Part shown: positions 10,242 to 15,876 of the stretch, one piece after another
How positions within the stretch are numbered: the first letter of the stretch is position 1
How the letters are laid out: every line of letters starts with the position of its first letter
NCBI GenBank assembly: GCA_000004985.1
Contig: GG738890.1
From: Naegleria gruberi
Lineage: Eukaryota
DNA length: 64,000 nucleotides
Direction: 5' to 3' (one strand)
Notes under the pieces: generated by a model
What the model saw: only the letters and a program-made list of their open reading frames with translations
Database searches by the model: none
Told to the model about the DNA's origin: nothing
Program-made: the position numbers and the translations under genes

Positions 10242-11504
10242 TTATTGTAACCTATTTTTCAAATCAGAAATGACAATGGATAAAAGTTCAGTTCTCAATG
10301 AAGTAATTCTTTCTGTTGGAATCAATTTGAATCGATTGGAAATAAAAATTTTACAATAACTAAATAAACTTTCAATATTTGCAGTTTCTGCCAAATCGAA
10401 TAGTTCACAAACATTATCAGTTGTAATGTTTGGAATAATAAAACGAGTGGCAAGATCTTCCATTTCTGTGAGCATTAATTGATTTCCCACTTGAGTTAAT
10501 TTCAATAGAGTTTCCATTGGAATACATTCACCATCCTTAGTCTTGATTGTTCCAGTATAGATATATTCGAGAATGTACTTCATAATTAGATATTCAAACT
10601 CAACTTTCATAACAAATGGATTTTGTGAAGTGTATTCCTTTGAATTATTCCATTGAGTTGACAATAAAGTCTTGAAATATAGAGATCTAGCAACTAGTAT
10701 TGCATGATTAGCATACAGAATTTGATCACTATCTGAGCAAGCAATATGTACATTGGCAAATTCTTTCATTTCTAATAATTGTACCAAATCTCTTCTCAGA
10801 AAACTATCTGATTTTGATTCTAATGCTTTTTCAAGTCTTGTGCTCATTGAGATTGGAAAATCACTCTTCATATCTTCCAAAATATCAACATCACACAGAG
10901 CCATATTATACATTCTGAAATTTTTGATCTGTGCATTGGCTCTATCATAACCATAACCACTTTCGAATAGATGAAAATTTTGATTATCATTTCTCTTCAA
11001 ATATTGCCCAAACTTTTCATATTTATCCAACTTTCCATCGATAAACAAGAATTGATAAGGTCCATAATACACTAAACCAACATGAGTCCACCTATTCAAA
11101 TCAATCTCTTGCCTACTATCAAATCCTGCATTATCTGCAACAGACGAATCACATCTACAATGCAACAAATTACTTCCCGGACACAACCAACAAGCAGGTT
11201 GTCTAACAGTGTTGGCATTTCCATGATGAAATAAAACTCTCCATTGTCCATGTCCATTTCCTAGTAAATTAATTTGAAAAGTAATGGAATATTCACGTAG
11301 GAGGCTCTGTTCAGAATGAATATCCTCACCTGTGATGGTTGTATTCTCAGGTGTGGTGAGAAATTGTGAAATGATTGGATTTTCATGTTTGATGGATGGA
11401 ATAAATGATGGTTTTACATTGAGCTGCTTTGGGGAAATAACTTGGGAGTGAGTTTGTGTGTTGATCGGAGTGGTGTCTACGAATTCTTGGCTATGAATTT
11501 GCAT
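10242..11504 (-). CDS. BTB/POZ-domain protein with an N-terminal ConA/LamG-like beta-sandwich region
   Basis: The BTB core VHIACSDSDQILYANHAILVARSLYFKTLL is followed by a BACK-like helical region. The N-terminal region (GQWRVLFHHGNANT...WTHVGLVYYGPYQFLFIDGKL) is jelly-roll-like. Confidence 0.6.
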   Translation of the reverse strand: MQIHSQEFVDTTPINTQTHSQVISPKQLNVKPSFIPSIKHENPIISQFLTTPENTTITGEDIHSEQSLLREYSITFQINLLGNGHGQWRVLFHHGNANTVRQPACWLCPGSNLLHCRCDSSVADNAGFDSRQEIDLNRWTHVGLVYYGPYQFLFIDGKLDKYEKFGQYLKRNDNQNFHLFESGYGYDRANAQIKNFRMYNMALCDVDILEDMKSDFPISMSTRLEKALESKSDSFLRRDLVQLLEMKEFANVHIACSDSDQILYANHAILVARSLYFKTLLSTQWNNSKEYTSQNPFVMKVEFEYLIMKYILEYIYTGTIKTKDGECIPMETLLKLTQVGNQLMLTEMEDLATRFIIPNITTDNVCELFDLAETANIESLFSYCKIFISNRFKLIPTERITSLRTELLSIVISDLKNRLQ

Positions 11505-11662
11505 TTTTTTTGACTAGTTTATTTATAAATTTGTGAACTTGATATTTTGTAATGGATGAACTAGTTCATACTGGTTTTCATAGTTCATTATTGAAAATTT
11601 GTTTGGGTCATATCATGTAATGAGTTAATTATTGAATTATTGCTTGAAAACAACTGAGCAAT

Positions 11663-13219
11663 TTATTTGTGTATTCTTGTTTGAATCATTTCACTGAAAA
11701 GATCACTCACACTGAATCTTATGAACATGTCTTGAAGTACGGAAGCAGTCATTTCATTCAGTACTTCATCAAATAGTAATGGTGCTTGTGAAAGGAAGAA
11801 ATCTTCCTCAACTTTATCAGAGAATATTTCAGATATTTTGAATTTCACATCTTGCCTTAATTTGTCTCTTGTGTTTACGTACATTATCGAAGATTCATCA
11901 AAAAGGAAGTACTTTCCAATTGACTCTGCAACAATTTTTGCCTTACTGAAATTATTAAACTTGGAAGTAAGGGGTTTGTACTTTAAATTAATATCCTCCC
12001 AAAATATGATATTTTCAGAGTTATATTCCTTTGAGCTCATTATCTTAAAGTATTTTCTAAAGTGATCTGTTTGGAGAATCATATTTACATCAATAGTTTT
12101 TGGATCAATATTTTGATAGAATTCAATATCTGCTGCAAAACATGATCTAGATTTGGGTATATTTCTTTCTTTTGATTTACAAATATTGAGTGAATCTTGT
12201 TCCAAAGATTGTTTCATTTCTGTGCTTAGTGATTGTAAATCTGATGTTCCTGGAATCATCTTATATCTTGGTACAGTTGAGAAGAATGATTCAATGCTCT
12301 TCATTATTCCTCCCATATTTGCAAAAGTCGTATTAACCGTAGTGACCTGATCAGTGGTAATTGGCTGTGCTGACTGCTGACTGGCCCCTTCAATTTCAAT
12401 CATTACTTCTCTTTCTGAACTTGAATGGTTATTTGAATGACTATTTTCCTTATCAGTTGCATTTGCAAGAAGACTATCAATGATCAAATCTGAAATTGGG
12501 GATGCAATTGTTTTATCCATGTGAAGAACCAAATCTTTGATTATATTTGGACATGCATCTGCATAGTTGTGTCTCCATGACTTGGCAACCTTTCCATTTC
12601 TAATGAGAAACATACATGGTTTGATTCTAAATGAATTGTTAAAATACTTGCTGTCCATTCTTACACTTTGTTCGAACCCCTCCATATGAACCTTAGCCAG
12701 TTGAGGCATCAGATGGGATATATATGTACTAATAGGTGGTAAATTATAGAAAATATTGAATTTTGATGCAAATTGCTGTTCTGGATCATTTATCCTCACC
12801 AAGTTTTGAATTTCTGGTACTTTCCACTAATTTAGTTTTGATTCGCCACAATTTTTTGAATAAACTATTCATGTGATTCAGTAATTGCTTACCTTTGCAA
12901 AGAAACTCTCTCCCTCCTCAACATCTTCAGGATAAACAACAACAGGAATAATATTGTATTGCTTGAGAGTTCTATAAAATTCCATCAATTGATTCATTCT
13001 TCTATTGCAGAATCCACATCCTTGAAATTTAACATATCTTCTGAAAATTAACAAGATATTCGATCTACAAGACATGTCATGAATATTCTCACCATAATTT
13101 GTTATCATTTGTTGTGTTACTTGTGCAATGTCGAGTGAAAGATCTTCTGCTTCCATCTCTTTACATCGTTTTGCGTTAGGGAAGGGCGTTTTGTTCGGCA
13201 CTGGATTGTAACTCTTCAT
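11663..13219 (-). CDS. Two-exon gene (13219..12893 and 12826..11663; intron 12892..12827, GTAAGC...TTAG, phase 0). It encodes an N-terminal PRXL2/AhpC-TSA_2-type thioredoxin-fold domain (CxxC) fused to a C-terminal RGS domain
   Basis: Both track ORFs start at TTG. Joining them at the 66-nt intron keeps the frame (…FFAK|WKVPEI…). The Trx-fold block NILLIFRRYVKFQGCGFCNRR…IIPVVVYPE resembles PRXL2A (RRPGCFLCREEA…VPLYAVVKE). The RGS motif is SKEYNSENIIFWEDINLKYKPL. Confidence 0.65.
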
Positions 13220-13530
13220 GATGGTGATGCAATTACTTTGATATGTGGAATAGTATTTTTTTTTGATGCAACAAATTGAAACTGTTGGCCAACACTTGTC
13301 ATGTTGGGAAAATAGTTCATTGTTGTATGATGTTTGAAAGCATGAACTGCATGTTGGTTCATCAGCATGTTGTTGGGATAACAATTTAAAGCATTCACAC
13401 AGATGACTTTTGTAAATAAATTGAAAAATGGGAACTGTCTTTGTAAAAACAGTCTCAGTATACTCTTTATCTGTTTAAAATTCGAAAATCAAATGAAATT
13501 CTTTCAAATAATTCCAAATTTCAGTAAAAT

Positions 13531-13962
13531 CTATTTAAAAAGTTTAAATTTCTTTACAAATTTAGCCACCAGAGAACGAGGATAAGGTTTCAAAGCAATT
13601 GAAGTTGGAATATTTTCTGGTTGTTCCACCCACAATTTATATTTCATTTGATTCTTATCCAAATCATCACGAAGGGAAAGTAATTGTTTCTCCGAAGGAC
13701 ATTCCAAAACAATTGTATGCATTTGATGGATAGCATTAGCATCTACATAATTCAAAGTAATTGGATCCTTGTCAATAAGTAAACTTTCGGAAATGATGGA
13801 AACACTGGCATGACTTCCCTGAGAGACAATTGAACCAATAGCATAGGAATAAGGTGGTTGCATTAAATCTCTTCTAATGACAATGTATTGAACAATGGTA
13901 TCGATGGTGGCATTGGCTTGTGGTGGAAGTTGAGGTTCCGATGTTGATTGATTTTCGCTCAT
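13531..13962 (-). CDS. PTRHD1: PTRHD1-type peptidyl-tRNA hydrolase domain protein
   Basis: IVQYIVIRRDLMQPPYSYAIGSIVSQGSHASV and KLWVEQPENIPTSIALKPYPRSLVAKFVKKFKLFK closely parallel human PTRHD1 (LVQYLVLRKDL…AQACHAA; LWLEQPENIATCIALRPYP…YLKKFRLFK). Confidence 0.85.
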   Translation of the reverse strand: MSENQSTSEPQLPPQANATIDTIVQYIVIRRDLMQPPYSYAIGSIVSQGSHASVSIISESLLIDKDPITLNYVDANAIHQMHTIVLECPSEKQLLSLRDDLDKNQMKYKLWVEQPENIPTSIALKPYPRSLVAKFVKKFKLFK

Positions 13963-14055
13963 TTTTTTATTATTAATTTTAATATTTAATATTCTATATT
14001 ATTAAATAATATTTAAATATTTAATGTTCTTTAAAAAATTTGAAATTATTAAAAA

Positions 14056-15876
14056 ATGAAAAGAAGTAGAGAGGGAGGAAATTCATCATCCTCTGCTAAA
14101 AAAACAAATGATTTTTCATCTCCGAAGTCACTTGTTGATGTTTCAGCCTCATCCTCATCAACAAACACAAATTCATCAAATAGAGAAAAATTCTCTCAAC
14201 AATTAACTCAAGGAAAGGACCAAAAACGAAGAGGAACATCATCAAGTTACAGTTCTAAACAAACAAGTGGAAATTCATATGGTGATTCTAAATCTATGGT
14301 TGATAAAAAGAAGAGAAGTGAATTAATTAAACATTTCCAAGCAAATTATAATAAGAGATATGCACTTATTCAATATAGACATATTGATATTAAAGTGGAT
14401 AAGAGTTTGACTAAGAAATCAAAGGATGAATCTGAAAAGGAGTCTGCTGATGAAAGAAAAGCTACTTGTGATAATTTATATTCCCTTTGGAAGAGGAATT
14501 CTTTTATTTGGGAAATGATTGAGGATTTTACAAAGTATTCAAAATCTGGAGGAGGTGGTTTTGATTTGTTTAATTTCCCTAATTTATCTATTGAATTGAC
14601 CCATTATTTGCTTTGTTTAATTGACAGCAAAAAGAAGCCACAAGATTTGAAATCTTTGGATTATAAGGACGTTGTTACAAACAATGTTCAATTACCATCA
14701 ATTTATCACAGAGGTGCTGAAGATCAAGCAACTCATAGATTCCAATTGAGTTTTGTCAATTCGATGAGATCTGGTAAAGAGATGGTTCTCTTGAGAATGA
14801 GAGCTTACAATAGTACAGATGAGGAAATTAGTGAAGATTTGAGAAAGTTGGCAACTCATTCATCATTTGCCATTGCTAGAGCAGTATCTGTTTATCAGCT
14901 CTTTAATGATGCCAAAGTTTTACCTCACTCCTTTGAAGAGTATGGTAATTATACATGTCTATTCTCCTCTCCTTCCTTTAAAAAGACCAGTCCAGCAACT
15001 TCCTATGTTAAACATAAGGCAGAAGCTTTCAGCTTACTGAACTCTATTGCTCAATCTAACAAGGTCATTTCAAAGAATGAAGATTCCAACAAGAAGAAGA
15101 ATAAGAAACCATCCACAATCTCCAAGGATTCATCCACTACTGCTACTGACCCACAAGAAAACTCCCAACAACGTCCACTGCTCAAAATCAAAGAACGACT
15201 TCGAAGAAAGAATGCAAACCATTTCTCTCACCAACATTCAAACAAAAATAACAAGAAGAATACTTCTTCAACAATTGCAACTCCAACCAAAAAGAAGAGA
15301 AAGATGGATACCAGTGATGATACAACGATAGTAGTAGAAGCAACAGCAACAACAAGTGATGTAAATAATACAGCAACAACAACAACAATAGAAAATCAAC
15401 AATCATCATCATCGGAAGAAAAGAAGAAACAAGAAAAGACCAAACGAAAATATGAAGAATATTTACCACTGAATGAAATGTGGAAGGAATATATGAAAAC
15501 AACACTGGGACCTTCCTCTCTAGTGAATAATGAAACTTTACTCAAAGTTGATTATCATGGCTGTATATTTAAAGTTGTAAAGAGTAAATGTGGTTCCTAT
15601 GTTGGAAAGGAAGGAATCATGATTAAAGAAAGCGAGAATACATTCCAAATATTATCTAGAGAGAATAAGACTTTTACCATCCCTAAGAATGGATCAATCT
15701 TTCAATTTACATTTGAGAAGGAAGTCATTAACAAATCACCCAAAGTGAAAGACACTCCAAAACAACAACCACAATACAAGCACTTCCAAGTAGAAATAAT
15801 CGGAACACAATTTTGCTTTAGAACCTATGATAGAGCTTCAAAGAGATTCAAACGAAGAGACATTATTGATTTATAA
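14056..15876 (+). CDS. POP4: RNase P/MRP protein subunit POP4/Rpp29, with a long low-complexity N-terminal extension
   Basis: The C-terminal approx. 110 aa (GCIFKVVKSKCGSYVGKEGIMIKESENTFQILSRENKTFTIPKNGSIFQFTF…) fit the Rpp29 Sm-like fold consensus. ATG at 14056 follows an A-run. Confidence 0.65.
   Translation: MKRSREGGNSSSSAKKTNDFSSPKSLVDVSASSSSTNTNSSNREKFSQQLTQGKDQKRRGTSSSYSSKQTSGNSYGDSKSMVDKKKRSELIKHFQANYNKRYALIQYRHIDIKVDKSLTKKSKDESEKESADERKATCDNLYSLWKRNSFIWEMIEDFTKYSKSGGGGFDLFNFPNLSIELTHYLLCLIDSKKKPQDLKSLDYKDVVTNNVQLPSIYHRGAEDQATHRFQLSFVNSMRSGKEMVLLRMRAYNSTDEEISEDLRKLATHSSFAIARAVSVYQLFNDAKVLPHSFEEYGNYTCLFSSPSFKKTSPATSYVKHKAEAFSLLNSIAQSNKVISKNEDSNKKKNKKPSTISKDSSTTATDPQENSQQRPLLKIKERLRRKNANHFSHQHSNKNNKKNTSSTIATPTKKKRKMDTSDDTTIVVEATATTSDVNNTATTTTIENQQSSSSEEKKKQEKTKRKYEEYLPLNEMWKEYMKTTLGPSSLVNNETLLKVDYHGCIFKVVKSKCGSYVGKEGIMIKESENTFQILSRENKTFTIPKNGSIFQFTFEKEVINKSPKVKDTPKQQPQYKHFQVEIIGTQFCFRTYDRASKRFKRRDIIDL

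What the first reader, a model, noticed from the sequence alone, without database searches (positions are those of the whole stretch)
11663..13219. Thioredoxin-fold (PRXL2/AhpC-TSA_2-like, CxxC) domain fused to an RGS domain
Two track ORFs on the minus strand are joined by a canonical 66-nt phase-0 intron (GTAAGC…TTAG) into one 496-aa protein. Its N-terminal 230 aa look like a PRXL2A-type redox domain with a GCGFC active-site motif, and the intron sits inside this domain. Its C-terminal half is a canonical RGS domain (SKEYNSENIIFWEDI…). I do not know of a described redox-fold::RGS fusion. It suggests redox- or lipid-peroxide-sensitive control of G-alpha GTPase activity.
Basis: partly seen in the sequence, partly recalled or inferred. 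Interest (0 to 1): 0.6.

Follow-up and report, generated by a model that had tools for sequence, protein, structure and literature searches.

The report
Redox (CxxC) domain fused to RGS
This Naegleria gruberi gene really does encode one protein that joins a peroxiredoxin-like CxxC redox domain to a G-protein "off-switch" (RGS) domain, and it belongs to a conserved, apparently undescribed family in heterolobosean amoebae that could link oxidative state to G-protein signalling.

Summary
The window is Naegleria gruberi. Exon 1 (13219..12893, minus strand), a 66-nt GT..AG phase-0 intron with three in-frame stops, and exon 2 (12826..11663) give a 496-aa protein. N. fowleri and N. lovaniensis orthologues have an intron at exactly the same codon boundary, and a metagenomic relative encodes both domains in one intronless ORF. 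The public N. gruberi model is truncated: 348 aa, starting at Met149, without the CxxC.

Residues ~353-492 are an RGS domain that keeps the G-alpha contact residues (RGS4 E87, N88, N128, D163, R167).

At least 39 protein clusters carry the same architecture. All named ones are Naegleria or Acrasis. In an alignment of 34 of these fused proteins, the first Cys and the RGS Glu are invariant.

I found no paper describing the fusion. Redox gating of GAP activity is inferred, not shown. I rate it a new variant of a known kind, of moderate interest.

The parts
11663..13219 (-). Whole gene: two exons, 496-aa Prx-like2(CxxC)::RGS protein of Naegleria gruberi
   Evidence: sequence and translation; 100% match of the C-terminal 348 aa to the N. 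gruberi 'predicted protein' P0001; collinear with 549-, 550-, 626- and 435-aa relatives.
12893..13219 (-). Exon 1, codons 1-109 (Met1..Lys109). It carries beta1, the CxxC and the first helices of the redox domain.
   Evidence: The read-through ORF of this exon (113 aa...FFAKVSNY*) exists in databases as the separate fragment P0008.
12827..12892 (-). 66-nt phase-0 intron, GTAAGC...ACTAAATTAG, with three in-frame stops
   Evidence: Introns sit at the homologous codon boundary in N. fowleri (85 nt) and N. lovaniensis (53 nt).
11663..12826 (-). Exon 2, codons 110-496 plus the TAA stop (11663-11665)
12488..13087 (-). Peroxiredoxin-like thioredoxin-fold domain (Prx-like2 / SelL-related), residues ~45-222, interrupted by the intron
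13007..13018 (-). CxxC motif, Cys68-Gly-Phe-Cys71, sitting at the N-terminus of helix alpha1
   Evidence: Sequence. C68 is kept in 34/34 and C71 in 32/34 fused family members. In the model the helix starts at residue 40, which is residue 69 of the full protein.
12098..12487 (-). Poorly conserved Ser/Thr/Asn-rich linker, residues ~223-352. It contains one conserved helix (~306-329) and Cys338 (window 12140-12142).
   Evidence: Identity to orthologues is 24-26% here versus 46-59% in the domains. pLDDT is below 50 over 213-313. The pre-RGS window is enriched in Cys.
11678..12097 (-). RGS domain, residues ~353-492
   Evidence: PF00615 hits 5/5 relatives, best E 4.4e-12; the query alone scores 19.2 bits against a cutoff of 23.9. 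The family profile hits RGS12, RGS14, RGS9 and RGS10 structures, best E 1.1e-6. hhalign to RGS4 gives E 1.1e-5.
12707..12709 (-). Internal ATG (Met149) used as the start of the truncated public gene model. That model lacks the CxxC half of the redox domain.
   Evidence: P0001 starts MPQLAKV....

Best explanation
**What is shown (about 0.95 confidence).** One cytosolic protein has three parts:
- An N-terminal peroxiredoxin-like thioredoxin-fold domain of the Prx-like2/SelL-related/PRXL2 kind. Its Cys68-x-x-Cys71 dithiol sits at a helix N-cap.
- A ~130-residue flexible linker.
- A C-terminal RGS domain that keeps the residues RGS4 uses to stabilise the G-alpha transition state.

**What is inferred (about 0.45).** The redox domain is the input and the RGS domain is the output.
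- Oxidants (H2O2 or lipid peroxides) or the cellular thiol-disulfide pool would oxidise or reduce the CxxC.
- That change would alter an intramolecular contact, the oligomeric state, or a disulfide exchange with the conserved linker Cys.
- The result would raise or lower GTPase-accelerating activity toward Naegleria G-alpha subunits.
- At least some Naegleria G-alpha subunits exchange nucleotide faster than they hydrolyse GTP. The GAP step is therefore the natural control point, as with the 7TM-RGS proteins, so a sensor::RGS fusion is a logical way to feed redox state into G-protein signalling.
For: **Architecture.**
- Conserved intron position and collinear orthologues.
- An intronless relative encodes both domains.
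- Exon 2 alone spans half of the redox domain plus the RGS domain.

**Redox domain.**
- Confident model, pLDDT 90.6, with peroxiredoxin and PGFS fold hits.
- The query hits NF040769 at E 3e-9.
- 60 of 74 relatives hit AhpC-TSA and 45 of 74 hit AhpC-TSA_2.
- The CxxC overlays the S/TxxCp motif of Bcp and the C44xxC47 of PGFS. The preceding Arg (R61, kept in 24/34) corresponds to PGFS R41. PGFS chemistry is taken from PMC12938796.

**RGS domain.** The equivalents of E87, N88, N128, D163 and R167 are E380, N381, N427, D475 and R479.

**Co-conservation across 34 fused proteins.**
- C68 34/34 and C71 32/34.
- E380 34/34, N427 32/34 and R479 30/34.
- Both modules therefore appear to be under selection together.

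**Family size.** 39 clusters at 50% identity have both domains. There are several paralogues per species in Naegleria and Acrasis.

**Logic of GAP-side control.** N. fowleri G-alpha5 and G-alpha7 are self-activating and are regulated by 7TM-RGS proteins. The genome also encodes 79 further RGS proteins (PMC9283941).
Against: - No biochemical, transcript or localisation data exist for any member.
- The direction of information flow is not addressed by any result here.
- The long, poorly conserved linker gives no evidence of a fixed interdomain interface. The full-length model was poor, pLDDT 50.
- The query alone is below the curated thresholds of PF00615, PF00578 and NF040769.
- A few family members lack one Cys of the motif, so a strict dithiol mechanism is not universal.
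- Domain shuffling is pervasive among RGS proteins (PMC3971589), so a fusion does not by itself prove cross-talk.
Confidence: 0.45

Rival explanations
1. The information flows the other way. The RGS domain is a G-alpha-GTP binding and targeting module, as in RGS-RhoGEF effectors. It would bring a catalytically active Prx-like2 reductase (peroxide, endoperoxide or disulfide reduction, as in PRXL2B/PGFS) to sites of activated G protein at the membrane. The redox enzyme is then the output.
For: - The top Foldseek hit and the only full-length PDB sequence match is PGFS, a true enzyme that uses the same CxxC and a preceding Arg.
- Naegleria RGS-RhoGEF uses a canonical RGS/G-alpha interface as an effector input (PMC9283941).
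- The first Cys, which is the nucleophile in CxxC enzymes, is invariant.
Against: - The Asn128-equivalent and the other GAP residues are strongly conserved. That fits a GAP rather than a pure binding module, although GAP and effector roles can coexist.
- No substrate-binding features could be assessed.
Confidence: 0.25
2. The two domains act independently, giving a bifunctional protein without cross-talk. Alternatively the N-domain is a redox-inactive scaffold or dimerisation module that only localises or oligomerises an ordinary RGS GAP.
For: - The linker is long, variable and predicted to be disordered.
- RGS proteins acquire many unrelated domains by shuffling (PMC3971589).
- PGFS dimerises through the helix that carries the CxxC (PMC12938796).
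- A few members have lost one Cys.
Against: - C68 is kept in 34/34 and C71 in 32/34 across proteins that are only ~20-25% identical overall. This argues for retained thiol chemistry.
- The architecture has been maintained through many duplications in at least two genera.
Confidence: 0.2
3. This is an annotation artefact. Exon 1 and exon 2 would be separate transcription units, or the locus would be a pseudogene, so no fusion protein exists in N. gruberi.
For: - Public data hold only the pieces: a 348-aa model from Met149 (P0001) and a 113-aa exon-1 read-through ORF (P0008).
- No transcript data were available here.
Against: - Exon 2 alone already fuses half of the redox domain to the RGS domain.
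- An exon-1-only product would be a broken thioredoxin fold.
- The intron position is conserved in two other species, and an intronless relative has both domains.
- All invariant family residues are intact in the N. gruberi copy.
Confidence: 0.03

Closest known systems
PRXL2B / prostamide-prostaglandin F synthase (FAM213B; PDB 9US9/9USA) and the wider Prx-like2 / AhpC-TSA_2 (PF13911) group
   Same: - Both have a peroxiredoxin-like thioredoxin fold.
- The CxxC sits at the N-cap of helix 1, preceded by Arg.
- A helical insertion precedes the cis-Pro loop.
- It is the top Foldseek hit (E 2.7e-7, TM 0.74) and the only full-length PDB profile match.
   Different: - The animal proteins are standalone enzymes with no RGS domain.
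- The Naegleria domain gets no direct PF13911 hit.
- It has a 4-5-residue insert between the RR and the GC.
SelL-related redox protein (NCBIfam NF040769), bacterial-type Prx-like2 proteins related to selenoprotein L
   Same: - It is the best curated sequence match: query E 3e-9, Acrasis members down to 1.7e-18 over the full profile.
- Both share the FLRHxGCxFC(R/K)E-type motif.
   Different: - All fused proteins score far below the curated cutoff (29-67 bits against 120).
- True members are ~175-195-aa standalone proteins.
Seven-transmembrane RGS proteins (Arabidopsis AtRGS1; Naegleria fowleri 7TM-RGS)
   Same: - Both follow a sensor-domain::RGS design in organisms whose G-alpha subunits self-activate, so the GAP step is the regulated one (PMC9283941).
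   Different: - In those proteins the input module is a 7TM receptor-like domain in the membrane.
- Here it is a soluble CxxC redox domain.
Canonical R4/R12-type RGS domains (RGS4, RGS12, RGS14)
   Same: - The RGS profile matches.
- The RGS4 E87, N88, N128, D163 and R167 equivalents are conserved.
   Different: - The sequence is very divergent; the query alone is below the Pfam gathering score.
- There is an extra insert between the helices in the Naegleria clade.
- The partner domain is different.
Oxygen/NO control of mammalian RGS4/5/16 through N-terminal Cys2 oxidation and the Arg/N-degron pathway (own knowledge, not checked here)
   Same: - It is a precedent for thiol oxidation regulating RGS protein function.
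   Different: - The mechanism there is oxidation-dependent degradation of the RGS protein.
- It is not a fused redox domain.

Membership tests
RGS domain (Pfam PF00615) | Significant match to the RGS profile | tested here: met
   The query alone scores 19.2 bits (E 0.0016), below the gathering score of 23.9. However, 5/5 family members match, best E 4.4e-12. The family profile hits RGS12 at 1.1e-6 and many other RGS structures. hhalign to RGS4 gives E 1.1e-5.
RGS domain (Pfam PF00615) | G-alpha switch-region contact residues (RGS4 E87, N88, N128, D163, R167) | tested here: met
   The equivalents E380, N381, N427, D475 and R479 are all present. Across 34 fused relatives they are kept in 34, 29, 32, 23 and 30 sequences respectively. 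The RGS4 sequence was recalled from memory; its residue numbering was checked.
RGS domain (Pfam PF00615) | All-helical nine-helix bundle fold | tested here: inconclusive
   The full-length AF2 model built from 5 sequences is all-helical over 356-494, but pLDDT is only 45-64.
RGS domain (Pfam PF00615) | GTPase-accelerating activity on a G-alpha subunit | not testable with these tools
   This needs a biochemical assay.
Prx-like2 / PRXL2 / SelL-related redox proteins (PF13911 AhpC-TSA_2; NF040769) | Peroxiredoxin-like thioredoxin fold | tested here: met
Prx-like2 / PRXL2 / SelL-related redox proteins (PF13911 AhpC-TSA_2; NF040769) | CxxC motif whose second Cys occupies the peroxidatic-Cys position, at the start of helix 1 | tested here: met
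   C68-G-F-C71 is present. The profile alignments place the CxxC on PGFS C44VVC47 and on Bcp S-P-V-Cp. The helix starts right after C68 in the model.
Prx-like2 / PRXL2 / SelL-related redox proteins (PF13911 AhpC-TSA_2; NF040769) | Score above the curated family cutoff | tested here: not met
   NF040769 scores 36.8 bits against a cutoff of 120. There is no PF13911 hit for the query. Membership is only transitive, through standalone relatives that do pass. The domain should therefore be called a divergent relative, not a member of the curated subfamily.
Prx-like2 / PRXL2 / SelL-related redox proteins (PF13911 AhpC-TSA_2; NF040769) | Thiol-disulfide or peroxide reductase activity | not testable with these tools
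   This needs a biochemical assay.
Classical peroxiredoxins (PF00578 AhpC/TSA) | PxxxT/SxxC peroxidatic active-site motif | tested here: not met
   The sequence is Y62-V-K-F-Q-G-C68-G-F-C71. The T/S position is Cys and there is no Pro at -7. The PF00578 score is 14.2 bits against a cutoff of 26.

The most novel reading that the evidence does not exclude
The family would be a one-polypeptide redox relay onto heterotrimeric G proteins.
- The Prx-like2 CxxC would be oxidised by H2O2 or lipid hydroperoxides.
- It would pass the disulfide to the conserved pre-RGS linker Cys, or directly to G-alpha, switching GAP activity.
- Oxidants would then act as a receptor-independent input to G-protein signalling in heteroloboseans, including the pathogen N. 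fowleri.
- A further possibility is that the redox module was acquired from bacterial SelL-related proteins.
Probability: 0.2. Interest if true: 0.75.

Novelty: new variant of a known kind. Interest (0 to 1): 0.52.

Why it matters
- RGS proteins are the main brakes on heterotrimeric G-protein signalling.
- In organisms with self-activating G-alpha subunits (plants, and Naegleria per PMC9283941) the RGS proteins are where signals enter the pathway.
- A conserved, multi-paralogue family that welds a CxxC redox module to a GAP-competent RGS domain offers a concrete, testable route by which oxidative state could set G-protein activity.
- Members occur in N. fowleri, the brain-eating amoeba, which faces an oxidative burst from host neutrophils.
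- There is also a practical result: the public N. gruberi gene model is truncated and hides the redox domain. The orthologues are labelled only "RGS domain-containing protein", so the architecture is invisible in current annotation.

Tried and rejected
- **PDB search with the 5-sequence N-domain profile (A2):** no hits even at E 10. It only worked after the alignment was enlarged to 74 sequences.
- **Full-length AF2 with 5 sequences:** pLDDT 50, unusable for interdomain contacts or the RGS fold.
- **The search for homologous proteins with the 34-sequence family alignment:** returned only 6 proteins and not even its own members, so it could not serve as a census or count N. gruberi paralogues.
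- **The same tool with P0050:** gave relatives with no organism names, only unlabelled EukProt, ENA and JGI entries.
- **AFDB50 fold search:** the library was unavailable.
- **Literature:** searches for Acrasis+RGS, 'RGS domain'+'peroxiredoxin-like' and RGS+thioredoxin+fusion found nothing relevant.
  - The Bosch 2022 text and supplements do not mention the architecture.
  - De Mendoza 2014 does not mention thioredoxin or AhpC, and its supplements are not held.
  - The survey by Anantharaman et al. 2011 (Gene 475:63) is not held. A prior mention there cannot be excluded.
- **Rejected, classical peroxiredoxin:** there is no PxxxT/SxxC motif.
- **Rejected, second copy or partner gene nearby:** tblastn of family members against the window finds only this locus.
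- **Rejected, conserved synteny:** the N. fowleri and N. lovaniensis orthologues lie between NADAR and MCM genes. The N. gruberi gene lies between BTB/LamG and PTH2 genes.

Full report
**Source and gene structure**

The window is Naegleria gruberi. The C-terminal 348 residues of the predicted product are 100% identical to an N. gruberi 'predicted protein' (P0001), and window GC is 33%.

On the minus strand the structure is as follows:
- The ATG at 13219 opens a 327-nt exon.
- A 66-nt GTAAGC...TTAG intron follows (12892..12827). It is phase 0 and has three in-frame stops.
- A 1164-nt exon ends at TAA, 11663-11665.
- No in-frame ATG lies upstream in that ORF.

**Is the splice real?**

Four independent lines of evidence say yes.
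1. The junction FFAK|WKV aligns without a gap to FFNS|FDI in the 549-aa N. lovaniensis and 550-aa N. fowleri orthologues.
2. Fitting those proteins back onto their genomic loci shows one GT..AG phase-0 intron (53 and 85 nt) at precisely the homologous codon boundary.
3. A metagenomic relative (P0005, 435 aa) encodes both domains in one uninterrupted ORF.
4. Exon 2 by itself already contains residues 110-222 of the redox domain plus the RGS domain in one ORF. The fusion therefore does not depend on the splice. Only the CxxC-bearing half of the redox domain does.

Public data hold this gene only in pieces. One is a 348-aa model starting at the internal Met149. The other is a 113-aa read-through ORF of exon 1 (P0008...FFAKVSNY). 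No transcript data could be consulted.

**The N-terminal domain**

Taken alone, the query gives only weak hits: AhpC-TSA at E 0.042 and Bcp1 3drn at E 0.65.

A profile of the five close relatives was searched against 1.84 billion cluster representatives. It found 159 proteins at E<=1e-3. These divide into fused proteins and standalone ~170-195-aa proteins.
- The standalone proteins are 'SelL-related redox proteins' (NF040769, E ~1e-43).
- They match AhpC-TSA, AhpC-TSA_2 and Redoxin. Of the 74 aligned domains, 60, 45 and 32 respectively match these families.
- The query domain itself hits NF040769 at E 3e-9, although it scores 36.8 bits against a curated cutoff of 120.

Structure prediction and fold searches agree.
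- With the 74-sequence alignment, AlphaFold2 gives a confident model: pLDDT 90.6, pTM 0.86.
- Foldseek against the PDB puts human prostamide/PGF synthase (PRXL2B, 9usa) first, at E 2.7e-7 and TM 0.74. Bcp/PrxQ, Prx6 and AhpC follow.
- The enlarged profile aligns over its full length only to PGFS (9us9, E 5.9e-6). It places the family CxxC on PGFS C44-V-V-C47 and the preceding Arg on R40/R41. PMC12938796 implicates those residues in catalysis.
- Cys68 lies just before helix 1 and Cys71 in its first turn, which is the classical CxxC geometry.
- The classical peroxiredoxin PxxxT/SxxC motif is absent.

My conclusion is that this is a divergent Prx-like2/SelL-related/PRXL2-type CxxC domain. 'PRXL2A-type' is more specific than the evidence allows.

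**The C-terminal domain**

- PF00615 matches all five relatives, best E 4.4e-12. The query alone is sub-threshold at 19.2 bits against 23.9.
- The family profile finds RGS12, RGS14, RGS9, RGS10 and EhRGS-RhoGEF structures.
- hhalign against RGS4 gives E 1.1e-5. It aligns the G-alpha contact residues E87, N88, N128, D163 and R167 with E380, N381, N427, D475 and R479.

**The fusion is a family, not a one-off**

- Local HMM searches of the representative hits show 39 clusters (at 50% identity) with a full redox domain followed by an RGS domain.
- All named members are heteroloboseans: at least three N. fowleri loci, at least four N. lovaniensis loci, and at least eight Acrasis kona loci. All are annotated only as RGS proteins.
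- The remaining members come from metagenomes, Logan assemblies or unlabelled EukProt sets. One EukProt organism has four consecutively numbered paralogues.
- One variant adds a CAP-Gly domain (P0045). Others are ~1000 aa long (P0007, P0011).

Conservation across 34 fused proteins that are only ~20-25% identical overall:

| Residue | Role | Conserved in |
|---|---|---|
| C68 | first Cys of the CxxC | 34/34 |
| C71 | second Cys of the CxxC | 32/34 |
| E380 | RGS4 E87 equivalent | 34/34 |
| N427 | RGS4 N128 equivalent | 32/34 |
| R479 | RGS4 R167 equivalent | 30/34 |

The linker is poorly conserved: 24-26% identity among Naegleria orthologues, against 46-59% in the two domains. Both modules thus look functional and are maintained together.

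**Mechanism (inference)**

Bosch et al. (PMC9283941) showed that some N. fowleri G-alpha subunits are self-activating and are controlled by 7TM-RGS GAPs. They also counted 79 further RGS proteins in the genome. In such a system a sensor fused to an RGS domain is a natural signal input.

I therefore favour the reading that the redox state of the CxxC gates GAP activity (~0.45). The alternatives are:
- The reverse reading, in which RGS recruits a PGFS-like reductase to activated G-alpha (~0.25).
- Independent or merely structural roles for the N-domain (~0.2).
- An annotation artefact (~0.03).

A Cys about 20-25 residues before the RGS box (C338 here) recurs in 23 of 34 members. It is enriched about 2.2-fold relative to the rest of the linker (not corrected for relatedness). 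It could be a disulfide-exchange partner or a palmitoylation site.

**Novelty**

Full-text searches found no description of a peroxiredoxin-like or thioredoxin-fold::RGS architecture. It appears neither in the N. fowleri G-protein paper and its supplements nor in the main text of de Mendoza 2014. The Anantharaman et al. 2011 survey of RGS architectures could not be read, so a prior mention cannot be excluded.

Both domains are well-known kinds, and domain shuffling in RGS proteins is common. I therefore rate this as a new variant of a known kind and of moderate interest. It offers a clear, cheap experimental test and relevance to N. fowleri.

Noticed in passing
window 11663-13219 (-); Met149 ATG at 12707-12709: The public N. 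gruberi gene model (P0001, 348 aa) starts at the internal Met149 and omits exon 1 and the CxxC. Exon 1 exists separately in databases as a 113-aa read-through ORF (P0008). The gene model needs correcting.
   Followed up: yes
window 12140-12142 (-), Cys338: A Cys about 22 residues upstream of the RGS box recurs across the family. It occurs in 23/34 members within the -36..-12 window, where Cys density is 3.7% against 1.65% in the rest of the linker. It may be a palmitoylation site or a disulfide partner of the CxxC. The RGS domain itself has no Cys.
   Followed up: partly
P0045 (JGI metagenome protein, 667 aa): This variant architecture has CAP-Gly (76-140), a Prx-like2 domain (~386-494) and RGS (596-662). 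It suggests a microtubule-associated member of the same family.
   Followed up: no
EukProt proteins gene2736-4145_t to gene2739-4148_t (P0170, P0169, P0168, P0050): Four consecutively numbered paralogues (47-56% identical) occur in one unidentified EukProt organism. This implies a tandem array of Prx-like2::RGS genes. The organism could not be identified.
   Followed up: partly
L002 (N. fowleri) and L003 (N. lovaniensis) versus window 10242-15876: Synteny is not conserved. The orthologues lie between a NADAR gene and an MCM gene. The N. gruberi gene lies between a BTB+Laminin_G_3 gene (10242-11504, -) and a PTH2 peptidyl-tRNA hydrolase gene (13531-13962, -).
   Followed up: partly
window 14056-15876 (+): This 606-aa ORF has an RNase P/MRP p29 (Pop4) domain only at residues 494-596. 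It is preceded by ~490 residues of Ser/Lys/Asn-rich low-complexity sequence, an unusually long extension for p29.
   Followed up: no
Family members P0039, P0068, P0109, P0127: A few fused members have lost one Cys of the motif (GCVFQ, GCIFG, GCLFV, GSIYC). These may be one-Cys or redox-dead variants.
   Followed up: no
P0012, P0014 (148 and 117 aa): Further exon-1 read-through ORFs, evidently from related paralogues or species, stop being homologous right after ...EKFF(N/S)x. This suggests the same intron position is shared more widely in the family.
   Followed up: partly
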